From a virus, in IMG/VR virus record IMGVR_UViG_3300035698_032311, positions 1 through 64,000 of that record: a stretch of DNA of 64,000 nt; one strand, given 5' to 3'. The translations under genes were made by a program, and so were the position numbers. The notes beneath the pieces were generated by a model that worked only from the letters and a program-made list of their open reading frames with translations, had not been told where the DNA came from and did no database searches. Of the stretch, positions 1,738 through 42,218 are shown piece after piece (the stretch's first letter is position 1; each line of letters opens with the position of its first letter).

Positions 1738-1808
1738 TCCGAAGTAATGTAATGGTCGCATAGGAGACTTTGATCCTCCTAATCTAGGTTCGAATCCTAG
1801 CTTCGGAG
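1738..1808 (+). tRNA. tRNA-Gln (anticodon TTG)
   Basis: Manual cloverleaf: acceptor tccgaag/cttcgga, T-arm ctagg-ttcgaat-cctag, anticodon loop ctTTGat. Confidence 0.55.
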
Positions 1809-1813
1809 CATAT

Positions 1814-1888
1814 TCCAACGTGGACAAGCAGTATGTCGTCTGTCTCATAAGCAGAAAATCGTAGGTGCAATTCCTACCGTTGGAACCA
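1814..1888 (+). tRNA. tRNA-Met/Ile2-type (anticodon CAT), CCA encoded
   Basis: Acceptor tccaacg/cgttgga plus A plus CCA; anticodon arm tctgt-ctCATaa-gcaga; T-arm gtagg-tgcaatt-cctac. Confidence 0.6.
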
Positions 1889-1889
1889 T

Positions 1890-1975
1890 GGAAGATTGTC
1901 GGGGAAATGGCTATCCCACCTCTCTTGAAAAGAGGAGCTGTAAAAGGCGTGTAGGTTCGAGTCCTACATCTTCCG
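1890..1975 (+). tRNA. tRNA-Ser (anticodon TGA)
   Basis: 86 nt with long variable arm; anticodon arm cctct-ctTGAaa-agagg; T-arm gtagg-ttcgagt-cctac; acceptor ggaagat/atcttcc. Confidence 0.65.
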
Positions 1976-2003
1976 CAGCAAGTAAGTGTGTTGTCTGTTG
2001 TAC

Positions 2004-2089
2004 GGAAGAATATCCAAAATGGACAAGGAAGCGGTTTGCTAAACCGTAAAGGGTAAAAACCTTTGTAGGTTCGAGTCCTACTTCTTCCG
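2004..2089 (+). tRNA. tRNA-Ser (anticodon GCT)
   Basis: 86 nt; anticodon arm gcggt-ttGCTaa-accgt; long variable stem aaaggg/cctttg; T-arm gtagg-ttcgagt-cctac. Confidence 0.6.
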
Positions 2090-2212
2090 CCTATGTTTTT
2101 AATACCAAGTGACATACCTCTATTATTAGAGGCATTAAAGGAAAAAGGATTTATAACTAAAAAAGAATTGATTAGCTATTTAATTAGTTTCTTAATTCGT
2201 TTAATATAAATA

Positions 2213-2286
2213 AGCCAATGTAGCTCAATTTGGCAGAGCAGTTGCTTTGTAAGCATCAGGTTGGGGGTTCGATGCCCTTCATTGGC
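2213..2286 (+). tRNA. tRNA-Thr (anticodon TGT)
   Basis: Acceptor gccaatg/cattggc; D-arm gctc..gagc; anticodon loop ttTGTaa; T-loop ttcgatg. Confidence 0.5.
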
Positions 2287-2292
2287 TCATAT

Positions 2293-2365
2293 ACTACCCT
2301 GTCCTAATTGGCAAAGGAGAAAGTCTTAGACACTTTTTATCTGGGTTCGAGTCCCAGGGGTAGTA
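2293..2365 (+). tRNA. tRNA with Leu-type anticodon TAG but short (4-nt) variable loop
   Basis: Acceptor actaccc/gggtagt, D tcct..agga, anticodon arm aaagt-ctTAGac-acttt, T-arm ctggg-ttcgagt-cccag, discriminator A. Confidence 0.45.
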
Positions 2366-2371
2366 CTATAT

Positions 2372-2444
2372 GTGCCAGTAGCCCAATGGCAGAGGCAACA
2401 GATTTAAGTCCTGTTCAGTGTAGGTTCGAATCCTACTTGGCACA
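2372..2444 (+). tRNA. tRNA with Leu-type anticodon TAA but short variable loop
   Basis: Acceptor gtgccag/ttggcac; anticodon arm acaga-ttTAAgt-cctgt (one A-C closing mismatch); T-arm gtagg-ttcgaat-cctac. Confidence 0.45.
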
Positions 2445-2450
2445 CAAAAT

Positions 2451-2525
2451 GCCACTATGATGCAATTTGGTAGACATATTAGTTTCAAAAACTAAAAATT
2501 GAAGGTTCGAATCCTTCTAGTGGCA
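2451..2525 (+). tRNA. tRNA with Leu-type anticodon CAA but short variable loop
   Basis: Acceptor gccacta/tagtggc; anticodon arm ttagt-ttCAAaa-actaa; T-arm gaagg-ttcgaat-ccttc. Confidence 0.45.
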
Positions 2526-2531
2526 TATAAG

Positions 2532-2602
2532 GGCTTCATCTTCTAGTGGCAGGAAACAAGATTCTCAATCTTGTAACAAGAGTTCAATTCTCTTTGAAGC
2601 CA
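2532..2602 (+). tRNA. tRNA-Glu (anticodon CTC)
   Basis: Acceptor ggcttca/tgaagcc; anticodon arm caaga-ttCTCaa-tcttg; T-arm aagag-ttcaatt-ctctt. Confidence 0.55.
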
Positions 2603-2607
2603 CAAAT

Positions 2608-2678
2608 GACCTTATCAGCTAATGGCAGGCTAGAAGACTTTCATTCTTCCAATGTGGGTTCAACTCCCGCTAGGGTCG
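2608..2678 (+). tRNA. tRNA-Glu (anticodon TTC)
   Basis: Acceptor gacctta/tagggtc; anticodon arm gaaga-ctTTCat-tcttc; T-arm gtggg-ttcaact-cccgc. Confidence 0.55.
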
Positions 2679-2689
2679 CAAATAAAGAT

Positions 2690-2763
2690 GGGAATGTAGC
2701 TTAATAAGGCAGAGCAATTCTCTCTTAAAGAAAAGGTTAAAGGTTCGATTCCTTTCATTCCCA
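2690..2763 (+). tRNA. tRNA-Lys (anticodon CTT)
   Basis: Acceptor gggaatg/cattccc; D gctt..gagc; anticodon loop ctCTTaa; T-arm aaagg-ttcgatt-ccttt. Confidence 0.5.
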
Positions 2764-2773
2764 CTATTGAAGA

Positions 2774-2845
2774 TGGCTTATAGTTCAACGGTAGAACACT
2801 TCTCTGATAAAGAAGAAGTTATAGGTTCAATTCCTATTAAGCCAA
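2774..2845 (+). tRNA. tRNA-Ile (anticodon GAT)
   Basis: Acceptor tggctta/taagcca; D gttc..gaac; anticodon arm cttct-ctGATaa-agaag; T-arm atagg-ttcaatt-cctat. Confidence 0.6.
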
Positions 2846-2959
2846 CAATATTTATTATTAGAATATATAAATAAATGAATTGTAAGAGGTTGCCGATTAA
2901 TAAGGCAAAATAAATTTTCAAAAGAAGATTTAATTGATAACTCTATATAATTCATAAAA

Positions 2960-3031
2960 ACCCCATTAACTCAACAGACAGAGTATTAGCCTTCGAAGCT
3001 AAAAATCTGGGTGCGAATCCTAGATGGGGTA
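2960..3031 (+). tRNA. tRNA-Arg (anticodon TCG)
   Basis: Acceptor accccat/atggggt; D actc..gagt; anticodon arm ttagc-ctTCGaa-gctaa; T-arm ctggg-tgcgaat-cctag. Confidence 0.55.
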
Positions 3032-3032
3032 C

Positions 3033-3104
3033 AGGGATATAGCTTAAAAGTAAAGCTCTATTCTTATAAAATAGAAGATATGGGTGCAAGTCCTATTATC
3101 CCTA
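3033..3104 (+). tRNA. tRNA-Ile (anticodon TAT, reads ATA)
   Basis: Acceptor agggata/tatccct; anticodon arm ctatt-ctTATaa-aatag; T-arm atggg-tgcaagt-cctat. Confidence 0.55.
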
Positions 3105-3110
3105 CTATAC

Positions 3111-3182
3111 TGCAGGGTCATCTAATCGGTAGGATATGAGATTCTGACTCTCATAATTTAGGTTCGAATCCTAATCCTGCAA
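3111..3182 (+). tRNA. tRNA-Gln (anticodon CTG)
   Basis: Acceptor tgcaggg/tcctgca; D atct..ggat; anticodon arm tgaga-ttCTGac-tctca; T-arm ttagg-ttcgaat-cctaa. Confidence 0.5.
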
Positions 3183-3187
3183 CATAA

Positions 3188-3261
3188 GGGAATATAACTC
3201 AATTTGGTAGAGTACCTGTCTTTTAAACAGGAGATTCTAGGTTCGATTCCTAGTATTCCCA
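3188..3261 (+). tRNA. tRNA-Lys (anticodon TTT)
   Basis: Acceptor gggaata/tattccc; anticodon arm cctgt-ctTTTaa-acagg; T-arm ctagg-ttcgatt-cctag. Confidence 0.65.
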
Positions 3262-3264
3262 CAC

Positions 3265-3405
3265 GGAGGCAGAAGACATTGGTCTGAAGCACATTGCAAA
3301 ATCTTATCTCATTCTAGTAGCGGGTAAGTGCGTGAAGTGTATCGATGAAAAAGAGACTTGCTAGAAGTTCTTGAGTAGTTGTTGGTTCAACTCCAACTGC
3401 TTCCA
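3265..3405 (+). tRNA. aberrant 141-nt tRNA-like locus (insertion-disrupted or degenerate tRNA)
   Basis: Perfect T-arm gttgg-ttcaact-ccaac followed by tgcttcc plus A. A 7-nt 5' partner ggaggca (6 WC plus 1 GU) lies 130 nt upstream. No canonical D or anticodon arm could be folded in between. Confidence 0.3.
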
Positions 3406-3454
3406 CAAAAACATGATTATAAAACTAACAATAATAAAGTATTAAAATTCAACA

Positions 3455-3525
3455 AGACCTAGTTACCGAGTAGTCAGGTGGGAGTCTGCAAAACTCTCTA
3501 CATAGGTGCAAATCCTATCTAGGTC
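3455..3525 (+). tRNA. tRNA-Cys (anticodon GCA)
   Basis: Acceptor gacctag/ctaggtc; anticodon arm ggagt-ctGCAaa-actct; T-arm atagg-tgcaaat-cctat. Confidence 0.55.
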
Positions 3526-3526
3526 T

Positions 3527-3817
3527 CATTTAGATATGATTGTGGCAGAATAGACGATAAACCAATATACCAAACGCAATAACTATTAGGCGAAGAAGGT
3601 GGCAAGTCATCTCCAGAGTTCTTGATACGCTTAATGGGAACTGAAGTTTGGTTGATAAGCAAAAAGAACCAGAAGCGATGTTGGTCTAAAAAGTATTGCA
3701 TTATGTTCTACCTGTAGCTGGTAATAAACCAGAAGTAAAAACTGTGAGGGAAGCGGTAGAGATACGCCTCACACTGTAGGGTGGAATATCGAGAATCCCT
3801 ACCAATCATATCTAAAT
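3527..3817. other. 291-bp element bounded by a perfect 15-bp terminal inverted repeat (MITE-like insertion or structured RNA)
   Basis: atttagatatgattg at 3527-3541 is the exact reverse complement of caatcatatctaaat at 3803-3817. The element sits precisely between tRNA-Cys and tRNA-Arg. The interior has an internal hairpin gtaggg…ccctac and no convincing ORF. Confidence 0.45.
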
Positions 3818-3820
3818 AAT

Positions 3821-3893
3821 ACCCCTGTCATCCAATTGGATAGGATACTGGTCTTCTAAACCTGAAATAGTGGTTCGAGTCCACTTGGGGGTA
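3821..3893 (+). tRNA. tRNA-Arg (anticodon TCT)
   Basis: Acceptor acccctg/tgggggt (two GU); D atcc..ggat; anticodon loop ctTCTaa; T-arm agtgg-ttcgagt-ccact. Confidence 0.5.
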
Positions 3894-3899
3894 CATTTT

Positions 3900-3971
3900 G
3901 CCAACGTAGCTCAATGGTAGAGCATTCGCTTGAAAAGCGAGGGGTAATAGGTCCAATTCCTATCGGTGGCA
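3900..3971 (+). tRNA. tRNA-Phe (anticodon GAA)
   Basis: Acceptor gccaacg/cggtggc; D gctc..gagc; anticodon arm ttcgc-ttGAAaa-gcgag; T-arm atagg-tccaatt-cctat. Confidence 0.55.
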
Positions 3972-4009
3972 CTGACAAAAATATTTAATTAGTATAAATA
4001 AACGATAAT

Positions 4010-4097
4010 GGCAAGGTGTGCCGAATGGTGAAGGCACTAGTCTGTAAAACTAGCACCCTAGTGGTAAACATTACAGGTTCGATTCCTGTCCTTGTCA
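4010..4097 (+). tRNA. tRNA-Tyr (anticodon GTA), class II
   Basis: 88 nt; acceptor ggcaagg/ccttgtc; D tgcc..ggca; anticodon arm ctagt-ctGTAaa-actag; long variable arm; T-arm acagg-ttcgatt-cctgt. Confidence 0.6.
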
Positions 4098-4102
4098 CAT
4101 AT

Positions 4103-4174
4103 TTCCGTGTAGTTTAACGGCAAAACAGCTGTGTTACATACAGAAGAGTGTAGGTTCAACTCCTATCACGGAAA
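4103..4174 (+). tRNA. tRNA-Val (anticodon TAC)
   Basis: Acceptor ttccgtg/cacggaa; D gttt..aaac; anticodon loop gtTACat; T-arm gtagg-ttcaact-cctat. Confidence 0.5.
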
Positions 4175-4193
4175 CAGTTGAATTAATTTTTAT

Positions 4194-4264
4194 TCCTCCG
4201 TAGTATAATGGTAATACACTTCTCTGTTAAAGAAGAATTAGCGGTTCGAATCCACTCGGAGGAG
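4194..4264 (+). tRNA. tRNA-Asn (anticodon GTT)
   Basis: Acceptor tcctccg/cggagga; D gtat..atac; anticodon arm cttct-ctGTTaa-agaag; T-loop ttcgaat. Confidence 0.6.
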
Positions 4265-4391
4265 CTAAATAGTATATCTTTCATTTTAATAGTAGTACCT
4301 ATGTACAAAAACGTCTAAATATGATATAATATACTTATAAAGGTCAAAAATATCAATAAAGGTCAATTTAATATAAAAATAAAATAAGACA

Positions 4392-6588: not shown

Positions 6589-6819
6589 ATGAAAAAAGTA
6601 AATAGGATTACTGTCGTTATCGGACGGTTTGGAATTGAACCCGAAAGTATTGAAATACCCAAAGGTTCTACTGTCAAAGAAGCATTAGAAGAAGCAGGCA
6701 TTGCTTTAGCCACTGGTGAAAAGGTTTATGTTGGAGGAGACAAAGCTACTTCTAAAGACATTTTAGACGATGGCGATGTAATTAATGTAGTCGGAAGTAA
6801 AGAAGGCGGGGTTCTTTAG
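6589..6819 (+). CDS. ubiquitin-like β-grasp protein (ThiS/MoaD-like) with C-terminal GG-VL
   Basis: 76 aa; ITVVIGRFG…EIPKGSTVKEALEEAGI…ILDDGDVINVVGSKEGGVL parallels ThiS/MoaD …DGDxI……GG. The diglycine is followed by a 2-residue tail. Confidence 0.5.
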   Translation: MKKVNRITVVIGRFGIEPESIEIPKGSTVKEALEEAGIALATGEKVYVGGDKATSKDILDDGDVINVVGSKEGGVL

Positions 6820-6869
6820 AGAATCGCGCCTTTTTTAAAGGTCGTTTAAGTTAAAACAGAAAAAAGATT

Positions 6870-7661
6870 ATGAATCCAAGAGATTTAAAAAAACTCGTTA
6901 TAGGAGTCGTTATCTTAGTATTGTTTTTACTTCTTAACCCCTTTGGTACAATTGGTGCAGGAGAAAGAGGTATTCGATTAAGGTTTGGTGCTGTAGTTGA
7001 TGAGATACTAAACGAAGGTTTATATTTTAGAATACCTTTTGTTGAAGTAGTTAAAAGAATAGATGTAAAGATTCAAAAAGAACAAGTAAAAGCAACTGCT
7101 GCATCTAAAGATTTACAGGAAGTTACTTCTGTTGTGGCTTTGAATTTTCATCTTGATCCAAATAAAGTAACAACAATATATCAAGAAGTCGGAATTGACT
7201 ACGATGATAGAATTATTGCACCTGCTATCCAAGAATCAGTTAAAGCTTCTACTGCTCAATTCACAGCAGAAGAATTGATTACTAAAAGAGCTGAAGTCAG
7301 AGAAAAAATTAGAATTATATTAATAGGAAAAATTGAAAAAAGAGGAATAATAGTTGATGACTTCAATATTATTGATTTAGACTTCTCGGCAGCATTTAAT
7401 AGAGCTATTGAAGCTAAAGTAACTGCAGAACAAGATGCATTAGCTGCTCAAAATAAGTTAGCACAAGTAGAATTTGAAGCAACACAAAAAGTGACCAAAG
7501 CTACTGCAGATGCAGAAGCAATTAGAATTCAGGCTCAAGCTATTACTCAGCAGGGTGGTAAAGATTATGTCCAATTACAAGCAATTGATAAATGGAATGG
7601 AATACTACCAGTAAATTGGTATGGTGGTTCAGTGCTTCCTTTTATAGATATCGGACACTAA
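6870..7661 (+). CDS. SPFH/band-7 (prohibitin/HflKC-like) membrane protein
   Basis: N-terminal TM segment, then GERGIRLRFGAVVDEILNEGLYFRIPFVEVVKRIDVKIQ and a long Ala/Gln-rich coiled coil, classic for the SPFH domain. Confidence 0.75.
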   Translation: MNPRDLKKLVIGVVILVLFLLLNPFGTIGAGERGIRLRFGAVVDEILNEGLYFRIPFVEVVKRIDVKIQKEQVKATAASKDLQEVTSVVALNFHLDPNKVTTIYQEVGIDYDDRIIAPAIQESVKASTAQFTAEELITKRAEVREKIRIILIGKIEKRGIIVDDFNIIDLDFSAAFNRAIEAKVTAEQDALAAQNKLAQVEFEATQKVTKATADAEAIRIQAQAITQQGGKDYVQLQAIDKWNGILPVNWYGGSVLPFIDIGH

Positions 7662-7662
7662 T

Positions 7663-7905
7663 ATGAAAAAAGGTTTTACAGTAATAGAACTTCTAGTAAC
7701 AATAGCAATTATCGGTACTTTGTTAGGAATTTTTATGGTTTCTTTACAAAATGCTAGAGAAAAAATAACAAATCCTGCTTATAAAGAATGTCAAGAAGAA
7801 GAAAACGAGTGTCGAAATGATTGCGCCAATTTTGCTGTAGATTTAAGTGATTGTCTTTTAAGATGCAATATTTTAAAAGAAAGTTGTTTAAACGTAATTG
7901 ATTAA
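7663..7905 (+). CDS. type IV pilin-like protein (prepilin-type N-terminal cleavage/methylation domain)
   Basis: MKKGFTVIELLVTIAIIGTLLGIFMV matches the G|FT(L/V)IEL prepilin peptidase site plus hydrophobic helix. Short Cys-rich C-terminus. Confidence 0.65.
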   Translation: MKKGFTVIELLVTIAIIGTLLGIFMVSLQNAREKITNPAYKECQEEENECRNDCANFAVDLSDCLLRCNILKESCLNVID

Positions 7906-7912
7906 TTATAGA

Positions 7913-8141
7913 GGCATAAGTAGTTCCTATTATATTTGCGATTTCAGGATCAAAAGTCTTGAAATTGCAAGCAACCTTATTACTACTCGCCTCTTAATAA
8001 AAAATAAAAGTGGCATAGGCAGTTCCTATTACAATTACATTTTGGATTTAAATACTGCCCGCCACCAACAGGAAAGTAGTTCAATGGTAGAACACAGGCT
8101 TAATTTACTTTTCGCTTTTAGCAAAAAAAGTTCCTATTATA
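7913..8141. repeat. three direct copies of an agttcctatta-containing repeat at about 100-bp spacing
   Basis: ggcataagtagttcctattata at 7913-7934 and ggcataggcagttcctattaca at 8012-8033 match 19/22; the agttcctattata core recurs at 8129-8141. Confidence 0.6.
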
Positions 8142-8183
8142 AACTGGGTGCCTGTGATGTAGGTTCGATTCCTACCTTTCCTA
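8070..8183 (+). tRNA. tRNA gene interrupted by a ~43-nt insertion in the anticodon loop (possible anticodon TGG, Pro, if spliced)
   Basis: Perfect acceptor aggaaag/ctttcct (7 WC), D-arm gttc-aatggta-gaac, T-arm gtagg-ttcgatt-cctac. The anticodon stem halves caggc (8095-8099) and gcctg (8150-8154) are separated by 50 nt instead of 7. The insert carries the third copy of the agttcctattata repeat. Confidence 0.45.
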
Positions 8184-8225
8184 CAAATATAAAAAGGTCA
8201 TATATTAATTTAACAAAGTAAATAC

Positions 8226-10190
8226 ATGAACACTTCAATTCTTAGGCTTTTTAAAGCTTTACCCATAAAAACTAAAAGAAAAAAAACCAACAAAGATTTG
8301 TTGATGAAAACCATCAAGAAAGGTTTTATATTTTCTCCAGAAGTTATTTATACTTATCCAAACTATATCAAGCTAATAGAAATGGTAGAAAAACTCTTTG
8401 GAATAACTGCTGAAAAATTAAATAGTTCTTTTCACAAATCTTGGGTTAAGGTAAAAAATGCTGATATAGAACAATTGGTAGTGGAACAAATAGCACACTA
8501 TTTGACAACATATGGTAAAGAGCAACCAAAAGAATATTTGATAGAAAAGGAAGTACAATGGGGTGTTAATCATTTAGCTGAAAAGATACTTGAATTGAAA
8601 GATTTTGAATCAAATAAAATTCAAGATGAAAATTATATTTATATTCCCAAAGAAAAGTTAGATATTCCTGAACTTGATATTGATGGAATAAAATTAGTAG
8701 TTATTAAAGGATATACTAAAAAAGAATTGAAAGAGAAGTTATTGAAACTGCTTGGTTTAGGAATAGCGTTAGGTGAAGATACAATAAAAGATGTGTTAAA
8801 TGTAGCTACTTTTGTTGAATTAAATGAAAAAGATTTAGAAAATATTAAAAATAAAGAAGTAAGAGTCACGCTTTATGATAATTTGAATTTGTTGCCGGAA
8901 AGCCCTATTGAATTTTTGAGATTTGTTATTTATAAAGCAACAGATAAAACTCTTCTGATTAAAAGTTCTGTATTAATAAAAGAGATAAAAGAACATAAAA
9001 ATACCGGTATTACTAAACTTTTTACTGAATATAAACAAAAGTATGGATTAGAAAAACTAGCAGAAATATTTTATCGTTTTAAACCCCTTTTTCTAGCGTT
9101 CAGAATAAACAAAACATCAAAAAAGACAATAAATAAAATAAGAAGATTAGCTGTAAAGTACCACAAACCACTACCAGAAGATTATCTTAACAACATTACA
9201 TCCAAGTTGAAGAAAGGAGAAAAAGTAGGCAGTAATAAACTAAAAGAAGAACTGGACAAAGTTAACGTGTTTCGCAAGATTAGATTGGCTTATGCTTTGA
9301 AATTTAGAACAAAAGATGTTAAATCAATTTTGTACAAGATAAGGAATGGAAAAGGATATGCTACATCTTTCGATTTTATAAAGAAAGCAGGTGCCAAGAG
9401 AATATTAGACATTGTATTAGATTCAATTGTTAAAGATATTAGCAAAAATGTAAAGAACAAAAAAATCTATATTCCTGAACATATAACATATAGTTTGCCT
9501 GCAACTGAAAAACAATTTACAGGAAATTTTCCCTCAGGAACATTTGTATCAATTCCCAAAGATATGATTGTTGGTATTAGTTGGGCAAACGTAAACGGTG
9601 ATATGATTGACTTAGACTTATCTATGATTTCACCAACAACTGGTAAAATAGGTTGGGATGTGGGTTATAGAACAAAAAGTAAAAATATATTGTTCTCGGG
9701 AGATATAACAAATGCTCCTAATGGTGCTACAGAGTTGTTTTACATACAAAGACAAACTAAAAAAGCACTTATACTTCTTGTTAATTATTATAATTTTAAT
9801 GAAGACATAGAAGTTCCATTTAAAATAATTGTAGCTAAAGAAAAAACAGATGATTTTAAAGAAAATTATATGGTAAATCCTAACAATGTTATGTCTGTTG
9901 CTGAATCAAAAATCAATCAAAGAGAAAAAATATTAGGTTTATTGGTTACAACTTCTGATGAATGCAGATTTTATTTTACTGAAACATATATAGGTAAATC
10001 AATAACTTCTACTGGCTCAGATTTTGTAGAACACAGTAGAAAATATCTCTTTGATTTCTATGAAAATACTATTAGATTAGAAGATGTTTTGATAAAAGCG
10101 GGTGCTAAAATAGTTGATAAAGATAAAGCTGATATTGATTTATCACCAGAAAACTTAGAAAAAGATACTATATTAAATTTGCTAGTTTAA
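8226..10190 (+). CDS. large protein with C-terminal TerD-like (tellurite-resistance/Ca-binding) domain
   Basis: 654 aa; residues ~440-580 read GISWANVNGDMIDLDLSMIS…GKIGWDVGY…ILFSGDITNAPNGATELFYI…ILLVNYYN. This follows the TerD pattern GWDV…DLDLSa…SGDNLTG…E.I.I…A.vTIhd. Confidence 0.45.
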   Translation: MNTSILRLFKALPIKTKRKKTNKDLLMKTIKKGFIFSPEVIYTYPNYIKLIEMVEKLFGITAEKLNSSFHKSWVKVKNADIEQLVVEQIAHYLTTYGKEQPKEYLIEKEVQWGVNHLAEKILELKDFESNKIQDENYIYIPKEKLDIPELDIDGIKLVVIKGYTKKELKEKLLKLLGLGIALGEDTIKDVLNVATFVELNEKDLENIKNKEVRVTLYDNLNLLPESPIEFLRFVIYKATDKTLLIKSSVLIKEIKEHKNTGITKLFTEYKQKYGLEKLAEIFYRFKPLFLAFRINKTSKKTINKIRRLAVKYHKPLPEDYLNNITSKLKKGEKVGSNKLKEELDKVNVFRKIRLAYALKFRTKDVKSILYKIRNGKGYATSFDFIKKAGAKRILDIVLDSIVKDISKNVKNKKIYIPEHITYSLPATEKQFTGNFPSGTFVSIPKDMIVGISWANVNGDMIDLDLSMISPTTGKIGWDVGYRTKSKNILFSGDITNAPNGATELFYIQRQTKKALILLVNYYNFNEDIEVPFKIIVAKEKTDDFKENYMVNPNNVMSVAESKINQREKILGLLVTTSDECRFYFTETYIGKSITSTGSDFVEHSRKYLFDFYENTIRLEDVLIKAGAKIVDKDKADIDLSPENLEKDTILNLLV

Positions 10191-10212
10191 AGATTTAAAA
10201 GGATCAAGTAAG

Positions 10213-11109
10213 ATGAACAGTTGGTTTAAACAATATTATAATAAATGCATTCAAATTTTAGATGAAATGAGATCTAAAATTGAAAAAAAAGTTTCAAGAT
10301 TAAAAGAAGATATCGCATTTTATCTCGAAAGATCGACTAAAGCAACATTACGTTTGAGAGAACAACAAAAAATGGAAATGTTGTTTGAACAATTAAAAGT
10401 AGAAAAAGCTGCATTAGAAAAACTTAAAAAATACAGAAAAGAACTTGATACTAATGTTTTCATAAAAGAACAGTTTCTAAAATTGAAATCGCATCATAAA
10501 ATTGAAAAAGTATTATTCAGATTCGATAATAAAATTATTGATATTTACACAGAAGAATTAAAAGTTTCAGGATCAAGAATTGGAAAATTCAGAATATCTA
10601 TTGAATTAAATAATAGTACACCATTTAAAATTAAAAATTTAACATATAAAGTTAATGATAAGTTTGATCATTGGTTTGTTAAAAATGAAAAACCATGCTT
10701 TGGAAGCTGGCAACCTGTTGTTGATAAATATTTACAAACAGGACATGTCTTTTTATGTATTGACACATTAATTCATTTTTTATTATCAATAAAAGGCGAA
10801 CACGGTTTTTTAAAATCTAAAGATTGGCTTAAAAGTTTTACTGAACAAAAACATTATAAAAGTAACACAAATTCAGGTTATCTAACAGTTGATATGGAAA
10901 CTACTGTAAATGCGGGCGATTCATACTATCTTAATCATATTATGAGTAGAACAAGAGTTGGTCCTAGCATTTATGCTTCTGTGCCCGAAATAGCAACTAG
11001 TCCAAGAAATGTATACATGGCAGTATCTCCAGGATTTATAAATGAGTCACCTTCAACAACTAATATGCCTATAACAACATGGTTATATGACAATAATGCA
11101 GCTAGTTAA
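10213..11109 (+). CDS. hypothetical protein, coiled-coil N-terminus; weak E2/UBC-like patch
   Basis: 298 aa; HWFVKNEKPCFGSWQPVV…GHVFLCIDTLIHFLLSI loosely resembles the UBC HPN…C…W.P…LLSI order. Confidence 0.3.
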   Translation: MNSWFKQYYNKCIQILDEMRSKIEKKVSRLKEDIAFYLERSTKATLRLREQQKMEMLFEQLKVEKAALEKLKKYRKELDTNVFIKEQFLKLKSHHKIEKVLFRFDNKIIDIYTEELKVSGSRIGKFRISIELNNSTPFKIKNLTYKVNDKFDHWFVKNEKPCFGSWQPVVDKYLQTGHVFLCIDTLIHFLLSIKGEHGFLKSKDWLKSFTEQKHYKSNTNSGYLTVDMETTVNAGDSYYLNHIMSRTRVGPSIYASVPEIATSPRNVYMAVSPGFINESPSTTNMPITTWLYDNNAAS

Positions 11110-12452: not shown

Positions 12453-12709
12453 TGCCTAATACTATTTTAAATTCTCAAGAACATAAAAAAAGACTTCTTA
12501 CTATAGCAGGTTATCTGCCTTCTCGTTCTGAATATAGAGAATTTTCTAATGTTCTTCATGTCGGTTCTCGTATCACTGAAACACATATTAGATATATGAC
12601 AATAGAAGAATTAAAATTTATGTTAATAGGAATTAAAAGGCGTCAAATTCAAGAACTAATTAATAAATTAGAAGAAGATATTCGTAAAATAGAAAACTAT
12701 GAAAGTTAA
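12452..12709 (+). CDS. hypothetical protein
   Basis: 85-aa ORF abutting the E1 stop. Confidence 0.3.
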   Translation: MPNTILNSQEHKKRLLTIAGYLPSRSEYREFSNVLHVGSRITETHIRYMTIEELKFMLIGIKRRQIQELINKLEEDIRKIENYES

Positions 12710-35682: not shown

Positions 35683-37566
35683 TTAGGGCGATGAAATTCT
35701 CAAGAAATATCTAATAATTGGATAAAGAGAAGGTACTTCATAACTTATTGATTCAGATAAATTCAATGTTTCAGAAAGAATCTTGCCGATTGCAACTCTG
35801 TCAGCTTCAGTTAAAGTAAATGTGTCTGAAAGAGTTTGACTGTGTGTCAATACACTAGTTAGAGCATCTGATAAAGCAACTGCTTCAGTCTGAGGAAGCT
35901 TAAATGTCTTTTTCAAAAGGGATGTTAATAATAAACTTTCTGTTTTTTTAATAATATTGTCTTTCTTTTCTGTTTCAGATATAGTTAAATTTTCAGACTT
36001 TTTGATATCAGTATCTTTCCTTTCTGCTTCAGATATAATCAAACTTTCAGATTTTTTGATATCACTATCTTTCTTTTCTGTTTCAGAGATAGTTAAATTT
36101 TCAGATTTTTTGATATCGCTATCTTTCCTTTCTGTTTCAGAGATAGTTAAATTTTCAGATTTTTTGATATCGCTATCTTTCCTTTCTGTTTCAGAGATAG
36201 TTAAATTTTCAGATTTTTTGATATCGCTATCTTTTCTTAATATACTAACTAAAGTTAAGATTTCAGTAAGTGTTTTTTCGGCACTAATTTCTTCTTTAAT
36301 AGAATCAGTAAGAGTCATAACATGCGGAGAAGTGGGATAATAATCAACATCAATATAATTAAGTTTAGAACTAATATTTAATGAATCCGTTAAAGTCTTT
36401 GTATAAGCAGTGCCAGTCGACGATTCCCATGCTAAATTACCCCCATCCTGAAATCTTCCATCTGTACCCGTCCCATCAATATAAACAAAAGCATAACCAT
36501 CATCAGGCAAATTAGTATGAGCACTAAGTATTATCGGATGTCTTGCAAAAATAAGAGTATTATTTCCCTGATTATTTGTGTCATCATCAGTCAAGCCAGC
36601 TTGAGTTTGCCAACCACCGAGCGGAGTTCTTTCACGATACTGGATATTGTAAATAGCAGTGTTCACCCCCCAACCAAGCCCTGTCCAAACAACGGAAACA
36701 TTATCATCATTATCCAATGCAATAGAGGGATAATCTTGATGATAATCTACATTAGTAACTGCTTCTGGATCATTCCATCCACCACTGTCTTCTGACCTAT
36801 ATCTAATTTGTTGTTTATCTGTATAATCTCCGACACCAATAGTAACCCAAACTATATGAGGATAATTGTTTGAATCAACAGCAATACAACAAGATGACTG
36901 AAACTCTAGATTTCCAGCGTCAGTAATATCTACTGTAACTGCCCAAGTATCCTCACTCACATCCTTAAATCTATACATTATATCTATTGTGAGTAATGCA
37001 CTTCCACCATACCATGCAACATGCACATCATCATTAGAATCAATAGCTATCGAAGGATAATTCTGAACATACTCATTATCAAAAACTGTTTCAGTATCAG
37101 CCCAAGTTCCTTCACTTGTATCTTTAAATCGGTACTTAATATCCGAATCTGACCAAACAACATGTACATCGTCATTCGCATCAACTGCTATTGCCGATTC
37201 TTCTTCCGACCCTGTACCTATGCTTTCTGTATCTCCCCACCCAACCCCTTTTGTCCTTTTACAGTATTGTAAAGTGCCTTGAGCACTTGGGTGATTACTC
37301 CAAGTAGCATGTAAATTATCACTTGAATCAATAGCCAATGCTGGTTTCCAAGCCCCCGCAGGACTCTCATAGGTCGTTACTTGTTCCTCTGTCCAATTCT
37401 CTCCACTATCTATGGAATAAGACACATAAATCTGATAATCATCGCTTCCATCCTGTCTTCTATAAATACACCAAAGTTTTCCATTACTTTCTCGAACCAA
37501 TTTTCTACTAGATACTGGCCAAAACCCATCACCTGATACACTTGCTTTTATTAAATAATCTGACAT
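35683..37566 (-). CDS. fibre-like protein: BNR/Asp-box β-propeller head plus tandem-repeat tail
   Basis: 627 aa; Asp-box SIDSGENW and repeated …D..H..W blades; junction AYTKTLTDSLNIS; 6 copies of KDSDIKKSENLTISETER. Confidence 0.55.
   Translation of the reverse strand: MSDYLIKASVSGDGFWPVSSRKLVRESNGKLWCIYRRQDGSDDYQIYVSYSIDSGENWTEEQVTTYESPAGAWKPALAIDSSDNLHATWSNHPSAQGTLQYCKRTKGVGWGDTESIGTGSEEESAIAVDANDDVHVVWSDSDIKYRFKDTSEGTWADTETVFDNEYVQNYPSIAIDSNDDVHVAWYGGSALLTIDIMYRFKDVSEDTWAVTVDITDAGNLEFQSSCCIAVDSNNYPHIVWVTIGVGDYTDKQQIRYRSEDSGGWNDPEAVTNVDYHQDYPSIALDNDDNVSVVWTGLGWGVNTAIYNIQYRERTPLGGWQTQAGLTDDDTNNQGNNTLIFARHPIILSAHTNLPDDGYAFVYIDGTGTDGRFQDGGNLAWESSTGTAYTKTLTDSLNISSKLNYIDVDYYPTSPHVMTLTDSIKEEISAEKTLTEILTLVSILRKDSDIKKSENLTISETERKDSDIKKSENLTISETERKDSDIKKSENLTISETEKKDSDIKKSESLIISEAERKDTDIKKSENLTISETEKKDNIIKKTESLLLTSLLKKTFKLPQTEAVALSDALTSVLTHSQTLSDTFTLTEADRVAIGKILSETLNLSESISYEVPSLYPIIRYFLRISSP
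35945..36265. repeat. six near-perfect tandem 54-bp repeats inside the BNR-fibre gene
   Basis: tatcgctatctttcctttctgtttcagagatagttaaattttcagattttttga repeated head-to-tail. Confidence 0.8.
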
Positions 37567-39288: not shown

Positions 39289-39897
39289 TCATATGTTTTT
39301 GAGATTAATAGTTTTAAAATGAGAGCATTGATAATCTGTCGGACAAAAAATTTTAAAGCCCACTTCTTTAGCTTTTTTTGAAAAACTTAAATCTAAACCC
39401 ATTGTTTCAATACCATTTTCATCAAATATTCTTTCAAAGGGTGCTTTTATTTTTTCAAGCACATTTCTTTTTATTAAAATACAACCTGTCCCGCCTGCGT
39501 CAATTTCAATAAGGTCATTTTCAGGCAAATCTTTAATTGGTTGCCAGTAACCATTAGCATCAGTTTTATAAACATTCCAGCCAACTTTGTATTGATAAAT
39601 CAGTGTTGGACAAATAATAACATCTTTATTTAATAAAATGAGCTCAAATGGATTTTGAGAAGGCACAACATCTTCATCAATCATAATCAACCACTCATTA
39701 TTTGATTTTAAGAATTTTTGAACAATATGATTGCGTGCATGAGCACATGGCTTTTCTTCAGTAAAATTGACAAAAATTTTATATGGCGAGTTTTTGCACC
39801 ATTTAATCAGTTTAAGTGCAAGTTCTTTTCTGATACTACCTTGAGTCAAGATAGCTAAATATACCTCTGAATCATTTTTTAACTTGTTTTCTGCCAT
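39289..39897 (-). CDS. GT-A fold glycosyltransferase (DxD)
   Basis: IMIDEDVVP DxD motif; paralog of 40005 and 58675 genes (…GTGCILIK…). Confidence 0.45.
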   Translation of the reverse strand: MAENKLKNDSEVYLAILTQGSIRKELALKLIKWCKNSPYKIFVNFTEEKPCAHARNHIVQKFLKSNNEWLIMIDEDVVPSQNPFELILLNKDVIICPTLIYQYKVGWNVYKTDANGYWQPIKDLPENDLIEIDAGGTGCILIKRNVLEKIKAPFERIFDENGIETMGLDLSFSKKAKEVGFKIFCPTDYQCSHFKTINLKNI

Positions 39898-40004
39898 TTC
39901 TGTGTGATTTTTATAAGTAGTTAATGAATAACACCTCTTTGATATAAAAAACTCCCAGAGCATCATCTAGATATGTCTGAGAGAGCTCTAATAATAACTT
40001 TAGA

Positions 40005-40700
40005 TTAATTTCTTTTATAAAGTTCCTTGTCTCGAGCTCTTTTGTTTAAAAACCCCCTTAAGCCGTTATTCCATTTCTTTTTAGCTTCAGGTGATAAGTG
40101 GGCAATATAATAATTTTCATCAATAACTTGGTTGCTTCCAATATGTCCGATTTTAAGAGACGAATCTACCCAAATTTTATAGCCCAATTTAAGAGCATTT
40201 GAACACCAAGTAAGGTCACTACTGAACAAATGGTCTTTATAATAATAATAAGGCGGCTTCATTTTCTTAAACACGTCCATCTTAATCAGCATACAGGACA
40301 TTCCTGTCGCGTCTACACTCACGAGTCCGTGGTAATAAGCCATTGTATTATAAGATTTTTCTATATCGTTCCATTTGAAAATACAGGGATAATGCGGTTT
40401 TATTCTTCGAAAAGCAAGTGCATTTACAATATTTAATTTATGTTCTAATAATCTTTTTAATGCATCGGGAGGAAAAGTCATGTCAACATCAATAAAAAAC
40501 AGATAGTCACTATGACTTTTCAATGCTTCCGATACTATATAATTTCGAGCAAATGGTAATTGTACACCCAGCGTTGAAATAAACCGGACATCAGTATTTG
40601 GGGGATATTCAAGGGCAATCAGACACTGCACAAATTTTGTATGAAGAAATTCTGATGCACTCGGCATTCCAACTGCTATTTTTAATCTTTTTGACTCCAT
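40005..40700 (-). CDS. GT-A fold glycosyltransferase (DxD), paralog
   Basis: FFIDVDMTFPP…ATGMSCMLIK…IGHIG. Confidence 0.45.
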   Translation of the reverse strand: MESKRLKIAVGMPSASEFLHTKFVQCLIALEYPPNTDVRFISTLGVQLPFARNYIVSEALKSHSDYLFFIDVDMTFPPDALKRLLEHKLNIVNALAFRRIKPHYPCIFKWNDIEKSYNTMAYYHGLVSVDATGMSCMLIKMDVFKKMKPPYYYYKDHLFSSDLTWCSNALKLGYKIWVDSSLKIGHIGSNQVIDENYYIAHLSPEAKKKWNNGLRGFLNKRARDKELYKRN

Positions 40701-40962
40701 AGTCTTAAGACATACTGCCTCTCTACCTGAAGTTCTCGAACTTTCGGAGAGGCCTTGGTTCACGAACTTCAGTATAGCATGTCAAGGATTCATGTTTATT
40801 TTGGTTATCGATATCAACAACCAAATTTAAAGCTAGCTTGATCCGCAGGTCACTGTCCAAGTAATTGTTAGGGTCATTCTGTTACTTTTATAACCTCTTT
40901 GTTGAGGCGAGTAAATATTTCTATTTACTTCTCTATGTCGCCATAGAGTTCAGACTTTCTCA

Positions 40963-41682
40963 TTATCCTATATTTAAAGAATCAACACAGTTAGAAGAAC
41001 TTTCTTTAATCTCATTTTCTTTTAATCGTATTACCTGATATCCATTCTTCTTTAATAGCTGAGTATATTTTTTATCTCTCTCAATCACATTAGGTAAAGA
41101 ATGCCAGTATTTTCCATCACAATATATTGCAAGATTATATTTGGGTACAAAGAAATCAACTATAGTAGAAAATATTAAATATTGTTTTTTATAAACTATC
41201 TTTCGTGTCTTAAGTTCAGCTTCAATTATCCTCTCGATAAGTGTGTCTTTTTTTATCCAACTTTTAGATAAAATTTTCATCATTCGTTCCTTTTCAACAG
41301 GATTACTCCATCTTTTCTGTTGACCTGCTTTCATTCTTTCTACAACTTCTTCTGATATTTTTCTGCCTATTAATTTTTTCTTAATTTTATTAATCGTTTC
41401 TTGAGAATAAATTCCTTTTTTATTCTTATTCCAGGCTACTATTATTCCTTTAAGACCTTTATTCCATGGTATCATTCTTTTTTTAAACTCGCTTTTTGGA
41501 TGATTTCCTTTCTTAAATCCGTAAGTATTACCTTTCATAAATTTTCTCATCTTCTCTTTTCGTTCAGTTGACCAAGGACTATTATAATTTCTTCTCATTT
41601 TTTTGATTGATTCTTTTGTATGATGTGAATCTTTCTTCATATATAGGATACTCTCCGTCAAGTCGTTACACCTTCCGCACAA
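40963..41682 (-). CDS. homing-endonuclease-like protein: NUMOD3 repeats plus C-terminal Vsr/DUF559-like nuclease
   Basis: GNHPKSEFKKRMIPWNKG and IYSQETINKIKKKLIGRKISEE are NUMOD3-like; C-terminal …YCDGKYWHS…RD…LLKKNGYQVIRL is a Vsr-fold PD-(D/E)xK domain. Confidence 0.5.
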   Translation of the reverse strand: MCGRCNDLTESILYMKKDSHHTKESIKKMRRNYNSPWSTERKEKMRKFMKGNTYGFKKGNHPKSEFKKRMIPWNKGLKGIIVAWNKNKKGIYSQETINKIKKKLIGRKISEEVVERMKAGQQKRWSNPVEKERMMKILSKSWIKKDTLIERIIEAELKTRKIVYKKQYLIFSTIVDFFVPKYNLAIYCDGKYWHSLPNVIERDKKYTQLLKKNGYQVIRLKENEIKESSSNCVDSLNIG

Positions 41683-42218
41683 GCGGCTTGGCTCGGGATT
41701 GTCTTGAATATTTTATCAAGGTTTTCCCCGAATTTGAAGAGTTTTTCATTTAGGATTACTCCTAAAGCGGACAAATTTTTATCCGCAGCCCCTTTGTTAA
41801 TTACTGGGAATGTTGCTCCACAGAGCATTGTTCCTGCACCAGAACTATTGAAAACACCCGCTTCAGTTATTGCTCCTGTTCCATCTGCAGCTGCCCATGT
41901 AGCTTTATAAACCACATCATTATCATCTGCACCAGAAAGTTGATCTGGGTAATTAGCAGATAATGCATTTCTATCTAGTTGACTACCCAATGTAGTCGCA
42001 CCAGTAGTAAAAGCAGTAGCAGAAGTTCCAATCGCCATCCATCCCATTCCAGCTTCATCAGGAGAAACATCTAATTGATCTGCAACATGAGCATCTCCTG
42101 TATCCATAAATGTATTTTCCTGTATGTGAAAATCTTTCAATCGACCCTCTTCGTCGTATATTTCCAGCTTAATTTTTCCCTTCAATGGAACTAATTCATG
42201 AACTTTTTTCTTTTTCAT
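41658..42218 (-). CDS. higher-GC Ala/Gly/Thr-rich protein, possible decoration/structural protein
   Basis: 186 aa; composition differs from neighbours. Confidence 0.25.
   Translation of the reverse strand: MKKKKVHELVPLKGKIKLEIYDEEGRLKDFHIQENTFMDTGDAHVADQLDVSPDEAGMGWMAIGTSATAFTTGATTLGSQLDRNALSANYPDQLSGADDNDVVYKATWAAADGTGAITEAGVFNSSGAGTMLCGATFPVINKGAADKNLSALGVILNEKLFKFGENLDKIFKTIPSQAACAEGVTT

What the first reader, a model, noticed from the sequence alone, without database searches (positions are those of the whole stretch)
8070..8183. tRNA gene split by a 43-nt anticodon-loop insertion that carries a local direct repeat
The acceptor pairs 7/7, the D-arm and T-arm are perfect, and the anticodon stem halves caggc/gcctg pair perfectly. 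The halves are 50 nt apart. The inserted segment (about 8102-8144) contains agttcctattata, which also occurs twice immediately upstream (7913-7934, 8012-8033) at about 100-bp spacing. Bacterial tRNA introns are normally group I (>200 nt), so a 43-nt insert is either an archaeal-style BHB-like intron, a small repeat element that inactivated the tRNA, or an iteron array (origin or regulatory site) that happens to overlap. If spliced at ttTGGgt the anticodon would be TGG (Pro).
Basis: seen in the sequence. Interest (0 to 1): 0.55.

Follow-up and report, generated by a model that had tools for sequence, protein, structure and literature searches.

The report
Phage tRNA carrying a Y-RNA-like helix
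A phage tRNA-Pro gene is interrupted in its anticodon loop by a 43-base hairpin that is an inside-out copy of a conserved RNA helix found in arrays next to a large uncharacterised phage protein, so it most likely marks a new Ro60/Y-RNA-like RNA-protein system built on tRNA shapes, not an ordinary intron.

Summary
Window 8070-8183 is a strong tRNA (Rfam 62.2 bits; tRNA-Pro UGG) with a 43-nt insert (8102-8144) after U33. AGTTCCTATTA occurs exactly three times, only at 7922, 8021 and 8129.

The repeat is neither an iteron nor a BHB intron. It is the 5' strand of a conserved, covarying RNA helix: RRC-A(U/A)A-NNNNGU-UCCUN ... UU-ACNNNN-C-GYY.

About 83 distinct copies occur in about 34 phage contigs. 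They form arrays of 2-7 directly upstream of a ~650-aa protein (helical N-terminus plus TerD-like C-terminus, no Pfam family, more than 1400 clusters). This includes cultured cyanophage S-CRM01, where the gene lies inside the tRNA cluster.

Normally the helix joins the RNA's two ends and encloses a loop, a hairpin, a whole tRNA, or a circularly permuted tRNA-like domain. The permuted ones are hit by Rfam YrlA (Y RNA-like) below threshold. In the window the topology is inverted: the helix is capped and sits in the anticodon loop.

Best reading (about 0.5): a Ro60/Y-RNA-type ribonucleoprotein module with a tRNA-shaped partner. Main rival (about 0.2): genuine protein-dependent tRNA splicing and permuted-tRNA maturation in phages. 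I rate it a new variant of a known kind.

The parts
7913..7991 (+). Helix unit 1. GGC-AUA-AGUAGU-UCCUA, then a 52-nt payload with an 11-16 bp hairpin, then UU-ACUACU-C-GCC.
   Evidence: Sequence; unit scan; MFE fold gives (((...((((((...)))))).))) at -27.6 kcal/mol, z = -5.6.
8012..8063 (+). Helix unit 2. GGC-AUA-GGCAGU-UCCUA, then a 25-nt loop, then AU-ACUGCC-C-GCC. It ends 6 nt before the tRNA.
   Evidence: the MFE fold shows the same motif, z = -2.4. Orthologous units with the same GGCAGT/ACTGCC stem are in L001, L003, L248 and L249.
8070..8101 (+). tRNA 5' part: acceptor 5' strand, D arm, anticodon stem 5' strand CAGGC, then U32 and U33.
   Evidence: Rfam tRNA 62.2 bits; ARAGORN -i; covariation of acceptor, D and T stems across 7 insert-bearing tRNAs.
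8102..8144 (+). 43-nt insert, which is helix unit 3 in inverted topology. It reads AAUUU, S' ACUUUU (8107-8112), C8113, H1 GCU (8114-8116), loop UUU, H1 AGC (8120-8122), bulge AAA (8123-8125), S AAAAGU (8126-8131), UCCUA (8132-8136), UUAUAAAC.
   Evidence: The MFE fold of the insert and of the whole pre-tRNA forms this hairpin. A near-identical insert sits in a different tRNA body in L001. 4 of 6 pairs of the inserted helix covary across 7 tRNAs.
8145..8183 (+). tRNA 3' part: U34 G35 G36 G37 U38, anticodon stem 3' strand GCCUG, variable loop, T arm, acceptor 3' strand, discriminator A. No CCA is encoded.
8226..10190 (+). Gene for the 654-aa partner protein: helical N-terminal domain (about residues 1-410) plus a TerD-like beta-sandwich (about 413-590). 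The family is always preceded by helix-unit arrays.

Best explanation
The 43-nt insert is not a conventional intron. It is the third copy, in inverted topology, of a conserved RNA helix motif that defines a phage family of small structured RNAs.

The motif is a 3-bp outer helix, a 3x1 internal loop A(U/A)A opposite C, a 6-bp covarying helix ending in G-U/A-C, then UCCUN on one strand and UU on the other. These RNAs are encoded in arrays directly upstream of a ~650-aa protein with a helical N-terminal domain and a TerD-like C-terminal domain.

In the usual form the helix is made by the RNA's 5' and 3' ends. It encloses a variable module: a short loop, a hairpin, a complete tRNA, or a circularly permuted tRNA-like domain. 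That is the architecture of bacterial and phage YrlA Y RNAs, which bind Ro60.

In the window the same helix is capped by a UUU loop and projects from between U33 and U34 of a tRNA-Pro-derived gene. The RNA's free ends are therefore the tRNA acceptor ends.

I propose that the helix is the binding site for the downstream protein, as the Y RNA stem is for Ro60. The tRNA-shaped part would be processed by tRNA enzymes such as RNase P, 3' trimming and CCA addition. It would serve as the effector or decoy module of a ribonucleoprotein acting on tRNA or RNA metabolism during infection. It would not be a decoding tRNA.

Shown here: the motif, its covariation, its topologies, its linkage to the protein gene, and the YrlA-like similarity. 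Inferred: protein binding, the absence of splicing, and the biological role.
For: Structure:
- S and S' are exact complements within each copy but differ between copies. H1 covaries as GGC/GCC 51, AGC/GCU 19, GAC/GUC 5.
- Permutation test: 77 of 174 5'-motif sites have their own complement within 170 nt, against 9.4 +/- 3.0 (max 21) when the variable tetranucleotides are permuted. H1 is pairable in 71 of 77, against 50.8 +/- 2.0.
- There are five G-U pairs and no A-C pair inside S, which points to RNA on this strand.
- Across seven insert-bearing tRNAs, 98.8% of cells pair, 10 pairs change on both sides, 0 of 500 shuffles reach this, and slid controls give 36-53%.

Linkage:
- One protein family is present in 25 of 34 motif loci, always immediately downstream on the same strand.
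- All 12 protein-seeded loci have units upstream.
- This includes cultured cyanophage S-CRM01, where g174 sits inside the tRNA cluster.

Y RNA likeness:
- Payloads are permuted tRNA-like domains: T arm, closed acceptor stem, D arm.
- They are matched full-length by Rfam YrlA at 34-48 bits, E 1e-7 to 1e-3.
- Known phage Ro60 genes have Y-like RNA genes directly upstream (PMC12135203; PMC4201824).

Against a decoding role:
- About 60 of 83 units have payloads too short to be tRNAs.
- Insert-bearing or permuted copies duplicate isoacceptors already present as normal tRNAs in L047 and L022.
- The L001 orthologue has UCA with G37, and the L047a/L048/L114 group carries a conserved G-G mismatch in the anticodon stem (by hand).
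- The closest relatives (L248, 80% identity, and L249-L251) lack the tRNA copy altogether.
- No RNA ligase or splicing endonuclease domain was found in the 37 of the window's 47 ORFs of at least 150 aa that were scanned.
Against: The protein is not demonstrably Ro60.
- There is no TROVE or vWA hit in any of 77 family members.
- There is no PDB sequence or profile hit.
- The C-terminal domain is TerD-like, not vWA.

The RNA lacks the GNCGAA motif of YrlA and stays below Rfam's gathering score.

Some features would be expected of a tRNA that is eventually spliced and used.
- The tRNA part of the window copy is pristine.
- U33 and a purine at position 37 flank the insert in 8 of 8 AT-rich examples examined.
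- The window's 22-tRNA array has no tRNA-Pro.

No expression or binding data exist.
Confidence: 0.5

Rival explanations
1. It is a genuine protein-dependent tRNA intron. The helix is a splicing and circularisation signal. An endonuclease, possibly with the 654-aa protein as recognition subunit, cuts on both strands near the base of the helix. A ligase then joins the exons. This would yield tRNA-Pro(UGG) here and, in the related phage contigs found here, mature tRNAs from circularly permuted genes, as in Cyanidioschyzon merolae.
For: The same helix occurs in all three topologies known for BHB substrates: as an insert in the anticodon loop, flanking permuted tRNAs, and flanking whole tRNAs. In silico un-permutation gives ARAGORN-valid cloverleafs with 38-47-nt 'introns'. 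Canonical loop remnants (U33, anticodon, R37) flank the insert in the window, L001, L047, L048, L022 and L062. All tRNA stems are kept by compensatory change. The window's array lacks tRNA-Pro. Lak megaphages were reported to have 'enigmatic' conserved tRNA introns (PMC6784885).
Against: The distances from the helix to the inferred splice sites vary (5/13, 4/12, 3/9, 1/11 nt), and the inferred junction lies anywhere from 28/29 to 37/38. Neither a helix-based nor a body-based ruler fits. There is no BHB geometry. No nuclease or ligase domain is recognisable in the protein or in the window's ORFs. Most units carry no tRNA. Copies are redundant with normal tRNAs. S-CRM01 unit 2 has a non-canonical loop remnant with A33 and C37. 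Close relatives lack the tRNA copy.
Confidence: 0.2
2. The units are cis-acting leader elements of the 654-aa gene's mRNA. They could be autoregulatory operators, stabilisers, or processing sites that separate the mRNA from the upstream tRNA transcript. On this view the copy inside the tRNA is a by-product of duplication or recombination between units and has no function of its own.
For: The last unit ends 10-25 nt before the start codon in L002, L003, L246, L248 and L249. Arrays are always promoter-proximal to this gene. The tRNA-embedded copy is lineage-specific.
Against: In the 424-kb phage (L047/L048/L114) units are scattered among tRNA genes with no copy of the protein gene in the fetched stretch. 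Payloads repeatedly hold well-formed tRNA-like domains matched by YrlA. The inserted helix and its host tRNA are both kept by compensatory changes in independent lineages. S-CRM01 also has a unit downstream of the gene.
Confidence: 0.15
3. It is a DNA-level element. The options are iterons of a replication origin, binding sites for a DNA-binding protein, or a small palindromic mobile element (MITE/REP-like) that happened to insert into a tRNA gene and inactivate it.
For: Three copies lie about 100 bp apart in an intergenic region. In L246 the neighbourhood holds replication and recombination genes. In L001 a GIY-YIG homing endonuclease gene lies nearby.
Against: Copies are not identical. The stem varies and covaries, with G-U but no A-C pairs, so there is strand asymmetry. 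All copies share the orientation of transcription of the tRNAs and the gene. The topology is inverted inside tRNAs, which simple insertion of the same element would not produce. The motif was absent from the 120 cellular-genome hits checked.
Confidence: 0.05
4. It is an archaeal-type BHB intron, or a degenerate group I intron.
For: For the window alone, a bulge (UU|A), a 4-bp helix (AUUU/GGGU) and a bulge (AC|U) can be drawn with cleavage after the second bulge nucleotide (hand analysis).
Against: The central helix would be one A-U plus three G-U pairs, and no inner helix adjoins it. The same drawing fails for L001. No EndA-like gene was seen. The host appears bacterial, given PG_binding_1, SLT and N_methyl domains. 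At 43 nt the insert is far below group I size, and no Rfam intron family matches.
Confidence: 0.02

Closest known systems
Ro60 (Rsr/TROVE) with YrlA-type Y RNAs in bacteria and phages (Chen et al. 2014, PMC4201824; Thermus phage phiLo Ro60 with Yrl1/Yrl2, PMC12135203)
   Same: One to several small structured RNA genes lie directly upstream of, and on the same strand as, a large RNA-binding protein gene. The RNA has a terminal bulged helix formed by its 5' and 3' ends plus a variable module. That module is often a tRNA-like domain with a T arm, a closed acceptor stem and a D arm. Rfam YrlA matches the permuted units full-length. The conserved motif sits on the 5' strand where the helix meets the internal loop.
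   Different: The protein has no detectable TROVE or vWA domain; it is helical plus TerD-like. The RNA motif is GU-UCCUN with an A(U/A)A/C internal loop instead of GNCGAA(N)G. Arrays reach 7 units. Anticodon stems and loop remnants are retained. A non-permuted form exists in which the helix is inserted into a standard tRNA gene; this is the window case and has not been described for Y RNAs.
Circularly permuted and intron-containing tRNA genes processed through BHB motifs (Cyanidioschyzon merolae, some Archaea; from my own knowledge, and reviewed in PMC4090602)
   Same: The same helix appears as an insert in the anticodon region, flanking permuted tRNAs (3' half first, acceptor stem closed by a linker), and flanking whole tRNAs. 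The insert position is non-canonical and variable.
   Different: There is no 3-4-3 BHB geometry, no splicing endonuclease, and the host is bacterial. Most copies carry no tRNA. Splicing has not been shown.
'Enigmatic' short tRNA introns of Lak megaphages (Devoto et al. 2019, PMC6784885)
   Same: Short, conserved inserts in phage tRNA genes with no known splicing mechanism, found in phages with large tRNA sets.
   Different: No motif, partner protein or structure was described there. I did not test whether the Lak inserts carry this helix.
Group I introns in bacterial tRNA anticodon loops (cyanobacteria, Patescibacteria; PMC13011429)
   Same: An interruption of a bacterial-type tRNA gene in the anticodon loop.
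   Different: Group I introns are over 200 nt and self-splicing with P1-P9 structure. This insert is a 43-nt simple hairpin.

Membership tests
YrlA / bacterial Y RNA (Rfam RF02553) | Reaches the Rfam gathering score (69 bits) | tested here: not met
   Related-locus units score 34-48 bits, full-length alignments, E 1e-7 to 1e-3. There is no YrlA hit in window 7800-8400 at E<=1.
YrlA / bacterial Y RNA (Rfam RF02553) | Terminal helix made by the 5' and 3' ends, enclosing a tRNA-like domain (V, T, closed acceptor stem, D) | tested here: inconclusive
   Met by units in L058, L062, L072, L103, L119, L022 and S-CRM01. Window units 1 and 2 have only a hairpin or loop. The window tRNA copy has the inverse topology, with the helix capped and the acceptor open.
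YrlA / bacterial Y RNA (Rfam RF02553) | GNCGAAN0-1G (Ro-binding) motif near the 5' end | tested here: not met
   The position is occupied by NNNNGU-UCCUN.
YrlA / bacterial Y RNA (Rfam RF02553) | Encoded within about 4 kb of, and on the same strand as, a Ro60/TROVE gene | tested here: inconclusive
   Tight same-strand adjacency to one protein family is met, but that protein is not shown to be TROVE.
Ro60 / TROVE protein | TROVE (HEAT-repeat ring) domain detectable by sequence | tested here: not met
   No Pfam TROVE hit in any of 77 members at E<=1. No PDB hit by phmmer or by profile at E<=10.
Ro60 / TROVE protein | Ring-shaped alpha-solenoid fold superposable on Ro60 | tested here: inconclusive
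Ro60 / TROVE protein | C-terminal vWA domain with MIDAS | tested here: not met
Ro60 / TROVE protein | Binds the Y RNA stem | not testable with these tools
   Needs EMSA, CLIP or a structure.
Archaeal/eukaryal BHB tRNA intron | Two 3-nt bulges separated by a 4-bp helix, flanked by helices, with the splice sites in the bulges | tested here: not met
   It can be drawn for the window only with A-U plus three G-U pairs and no adjoining inner helix. It is impossible for L001 (hand analysis; folds).
Archaeal/eukaryal BHB tRNA intron | Splicing endonuclease (EndA) and RNA ligase available | tested here: inconclusive
   None was found in 37 of the window's 47 ORFs of at least 150 aa. The rest of the phage genome and the host are unknown.
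Group I intron in tRNA | Self-splicing intron of more than about 200 nt with P1-P9 structure | tested here: not met
   The insert is 43 nt, and no Rfam intron family matches.
Circularly permuted tRNA gene | 3' half upstream of 5' half, acceptor strands joined by a linker, cloverleaf restored on re-circularisation | tested here: met
   Met for units in related loci. It does not apply to the window copy, which is in normal order.
Iteron array / replication origin | Near-identical direct repeats that act as double-stranded DNA binding sites, with no strand-specific pairing constraint | tested here: not met
   The variable part of each copy covaries with a partner, with G-U pairs allowed and A-C pairs absent.

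The most novel reading that the evidence does not exclude
The helix is a bona fide RNA excision and ligation signal. Phages of bacteria would then carry protein-spliced tRNA introns and circularly permuted tRNA genes, matured with the help of the ~650-aa protein family. That would be a non-BHB, non-ribozyme tRNA splicing system in the bacterial world. It would also explain the 'enigmatic' phage tRNA introns.
Probability: 0.2. Interest if true: 0.92.

Novelty: new variant of a known kind. Interest (0 to 1): 0.72.

Why it matters
Four points.

1. It links a very large, entirely unannotated phage protein family to a defined RNA partner motif. The family has at least 1400 clusters at 50% identity and is present from AT-rich siphovirus-like phages to T4-like cyanophages and 400-500-kb phages. 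That gives the family its first functional handle.

2. It extends the Ro60/Y-RNA concept of a protein-binding helix plus a tRNA mimic. The extensions are a different protein architecture, arrays of up to seven RNAs, and a new topology in which the helix is grafted into the anticodon loop of an otherwise intact tRNA gene.

3. It offers a concrete, testable explanation for short 'introns' in phage tRNA genes. It also shows that tRNA finders run in bacterial mode miss these genes.

4. A cultured phage, S-CRM01 with gene g174, carries the module, so the RNP hypothesis and the splicing hypothesis can both be tested directly.

Tried and rejected
- blastn of 6800-10300 against cultured phages found nothing.
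- An exact search for the tRNA 5' exon in viral contigs found nothing.
- A sigma-70 promoter and terminator scan of the intergenic region was no better than shuffles. I dropped the idea that the repeat is a promoter once stem covariation appeared.
- BHB drawing by hand works weakly for the window and fails for L001.
- A genome-contig scan with GGCATANNNAGTTCCTA gave 120 hits, all chance matches with no full unit. I therefore have no evidence for a cellular origin or a host assignment.
- Most single hits in the viral scan were also chance matches and were filtered out by requiring the partner strand.
- Pfam, PHROG, NCBIfam and PDB sequence and profile searches of the protein were all empty.
- Fold searches identified only the TerD-like C-terminal domain. 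The N-terminal domain gave generic solenoid hits.
- A search for a fixed splice-site ruler, measured from the helix or from the tRNA body, found none.
- A relaxed motif scan of the whole window was too noisy to add copies beyond the three.
- Literature searches for permuted tRNAs or protein-spliced tRNA introns in phages found only the Lak 'enigmatic introns'.
- I could not obtain a TROVE sequence set for a profile-profile comparison.
- I did not finish reading the S-CRM01 annotation for RNA ligases. Only 1-50 kb, the structural genes, was read.

Full report
**1. The observation**

The window is an AT-rich (about 31% GC) tailed-phage fragment. It carries a tape-measure protein, a tail tube protein and a prohead protease/capsid fusion. 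It also has an array of 22 tRNA genes at 1738-4265.

At 8070-8183 the Rfam tRNA model matches end to end at 62.2 bits, with a 48-nt insertion in the anticodon loop. Default ARAGORN misses this gene. With introns allowed it calls tRNA-Pro(UGG) with a 43-nt intron (8102-8144) after U33.

AGTTCCTATTA occurs exactly three times, at 7922, 8021 and 8129, and nowhere else in the 64 kb.

**2. What the repeat is**

A search with the downstream 654-aa ORF found five related phage contigs. All have about three copies of the same motif upstream of the homologous gene.

Reading these copies side by side shows that each is one strand of a helix. The unit is G(G)CA(U/A)A-[NNNNGU]-UCCUA-(payload)-(U)U-[ACNNNN]-C-GC(C). 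The two bracketed hexamers are exact complements within a copy but differ between copies. Examples are AGUAGU/ACUACU, GGCAGU/ACUGCC, GGAUGU/ACAUCC and AACGGU/ACCGUU.

A motif-seeded scan of viral contigs, filtered for the partner strand, gave about 83 distinct units in 34 loci. The outer 3-bp helix also covaries: GGC/GCC 51, AGC/GCU 19, GAC/GUC 5.

- An unbiased permutation test confirms the pairing. Of 174 5'-motif sites, 77 have their own complement within 170 nt. With permuted tetranucleotides the figure is 9.4 +/- 3.0 (max 21).
- The outer helix is pairable in 71 of 77, against 50.8 +/- 2.0.
- Non-Watson-Crick pairs inside the stem are G-U (five) and never A-C. This points to an RNA structure on the transcribed strand.
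- The three window copies fold into the same motif in MFE predictions: unit 1 z = -5.6, unit 2 z = -2.4, insert z = -1.3.

**3. The insert is the same helix turned inside out**

In units 1 and 2 (7913-7991, 8012-8063) the helix closes a payload loop and its outer end is open.

In the tRNA the order is reversed: UU-ACUUUU-C-GCU-(UUU)-AGC-AAA-AAAAGU-UCCUA. The outer helix is capped by a triloop, and the UCCUA/UU side opens into the anticodon loop between U33 and U34.

A near-identical insert lies in a different tRNA body in L001, with acceptor GGGGAAG and anticodon stem CCAGA/UCUGG. Further insert-bearing tRNAs occur in L047, L048, L114 and L115.

On an alignment of the seven, the acceptor, D and T stems and the inserted helix are 98.8% paired. 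Ten pairs change on both sides, and 0 of 500 shuffles reach this. Slid controls give 36-53%. Both the tRNA fold and the inserted helix are therefore under selection.

**4. Payloads and topology**

Most payloads are 13-40 nt. Longer ones hold a hairpin (window unit 1), a complete normal tRNA (L047:3607), or a circularly permuted tRNA-like domain.

The permuted domains run in the order variable region, T arm, acceptor 3' strand, short linker, acceptor 5' strand, D arm. When re-circularised in silico they are called as tRNAs with 38-47-nt 'introns' by ARAGORN.

The helix therefore projects from the anticodon region in both the insert-type and the permuted-type molecules. Only the position of the free ends differs.

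**5. The partner gene**

All-against-all comparison of ORFs from the motif loci found one family in 25 of 34 loci. These are the homologues of window 8226-10190. The gene is always immediately downstream of the unit array on the same strand.

Conversely, all 12 protein-seeded loci have units upstream.

- The family is large: more than 2105 hits, and 1421 clusters at 50% identity.
- It has no Pfam, PHROG, NCBIfam or PDB sequence match, even across 77 diverse members.

Cultured phages carry homologues: S-CRM01, S-CBWM1 and Phass-1. In S-CRM01 the gene (g174) lies inside the tRNA cluster. It is preceded by five units and followed by one, and one of the five holds a permuted tRNA-like payload.

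In the 424-kb phage (L047/L114) units are interspersed with tRNA genes only a few nucleotides away. They are probably released by tRNA-end processing; this step is an inference.

**6. Comparison with known systems**

Rfam's YrlA (Y RNA-like) model aligns full-length to the permuted units at 34-48 bits, with E 1e-7 to 1e-3. This is below its 69-bit gathering score.

YrlA RNAs are Ro60-bound RNAs. Their 5' and 3' ends form the protein-binding helix, and the rest of the RNA mimics a tRNA with a closed acceptor stem. They are encoded next to Ro60 on the same strand in bacteria and phages (PMC4201824). Thermus phage phiLo has two Y-like RNA genes directly upstream of its Ro60 gene, and that RNP engages host PNPase (PMC12135203).

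The module found here has the same logic. It differs in four ways:
- the RNA motif is different;
- the protein is not recognisably TROVE plus vWA;
- the arrays are larger;
- the helix can be grafted into a normally ordered tRNA, a topology not described for Y RNAs.

The alternative analogy is to BHB introns and permuted tRNAs. It fits the topologies but not the geometry. No 3-4-3 motif can be drawn in general, and the inferred junctions and their distances from the helix vary.

**7. Splicing or not**

In favour of eventual splicing:
- the tRNA body is intact;
- U33 and a purine at 37 flank the insert in all eight AT-rich examples examined;
- the window's array lacks tRNA-Pro.

Against:
- most units have no tRNA;
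- insert-bearing or permuted copies duplicate normal isoacceptors in L047 and L022;
- the L001 orthologue has UCA with G37;
- the Glu-type group shares a G-G mismatch in the anticodon stem;
- S-CRM01 unit 2 has A33 and C37;
- the closest relatives of the window (L248 at 80% identity, and L249-L251) have only plain units and no tRNA there;
- no ligase or endonuclease domain was found in the window.

I therefore favour the ribonucleoprotein reading at about 0.5. Genuine splicing is at about 0.2, a purely cis-regulatory leader at about 0.15, and DNA-level explanations at about 0.05.

**8. Verdict**

The finding is confirmed as an observation and re-interpreted. The 'intron' is an inverted-topology copy of a Y-RNA-like protein-binding helix that belongs to a widespread, undescribed phage RNA-protein module.

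It is a new variant of a known kind (Ro60/Y RNA). There is a non-negligible chance that it is something more unusual, namely protein-dependent tRNA splicing and permuted-tRNA maturation in phages.

Noticed in passing
window 1738-4265: An array of 22 tRNA genes on the + strand. It includes Ile(UAU), both Gln, both Glu and both Lys isoacceptors, and three Leu. Pro, Gly, Ala, Asp, His and Trp are missing. Gaps at 3262-3456 and 3527-3821 hold no detected RNA.
   Followed up: partly
L022:4448-4744: A bacterial-type RNase P RNA (class A, 148.8 bits) is encoded inside a 'viral' contig (IMGVR_UViG_3300037067_006484). It sits amid about 35 tRNA genes, upstream of a unit array and the partner gene. A phage-borne RNase P RNA would be notable.
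   Followed up: no
L001:3315-4004: A GIY-YIG-type homing endonuclease-like ORF (229 aa, with a GIY..YVG motif and repeated basic C-terminal modules) lies between the insert-bearing tRNA and the partner gene. Two small ORFs are also there. This suggests recent insertions at this spot.
   Followed up: no
window 6870-7905 and L248:228-1302: An SPFH/Band_7 gene followed by a small protein with a type IV pilin-like N-terminal methylation motif lies directly upstream of the unit array. This holds in the window and in its closest relative. SPFH/Band-7 scaffolds have been linked to RNA-repair systems with tRNA-like RNAs (my recollection of Burroughs and Aravind 2016; not checked here).
   Followed up: partly
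window 35960-36238: A 54-bp tandem repeat, 5.2 copies at 92% identity (also seen as a 108-bp period), lies inside the minus-strand ORF 35683-37566 (BNR-repeat-like protein). It would encode an 18-residue protein repeat.
   Followed up: partly
window 39289-56456 (- strand): A large sugar and surface-modification gene block inside a phage. It includes two Anp1-like glycosyltransferases, a DegT/DnrJ aminotransferase, an NAD-dependent epimerase/dehydratase (best Pfam match GDP-mannose 4,6-dehydratase), methyltransferases, a fused APS kinase-sulfotransferase (49180-50316) and a 760-aa double glycosyltransferase.
   Followed up: no
L025 (- strand) 12517-12588: ARAGORN calls a tRNA with a CUA anticodon (amber suppressor, 'Pyl') in the 501-kb phage contig that also carries the unit array and partner gene. 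This may indicate stop-codon recoding.
   Followed up: no
L250:1418-1503 and L251:1418-1503: In these relatives a Shine-Dalgarno sequence and an ATG overlap the start of the last unit (AAGGAGGAAATTGATGGCATACGCAGTTCCTA). A short upstream ORF may therefore be translated through the unit.
   Followed up: no
window 8184-8225; L248:1488-1503; L249:1483-1503: The partner gene has no obvious Shine-Dalgarno sequence in the window, L248 or L249 (A-rich leader only). L002, L003, L004 and L246 have strong AGGAGG. Translation initiation may depend on the upstream structure in some lineages.
   Followed up: no
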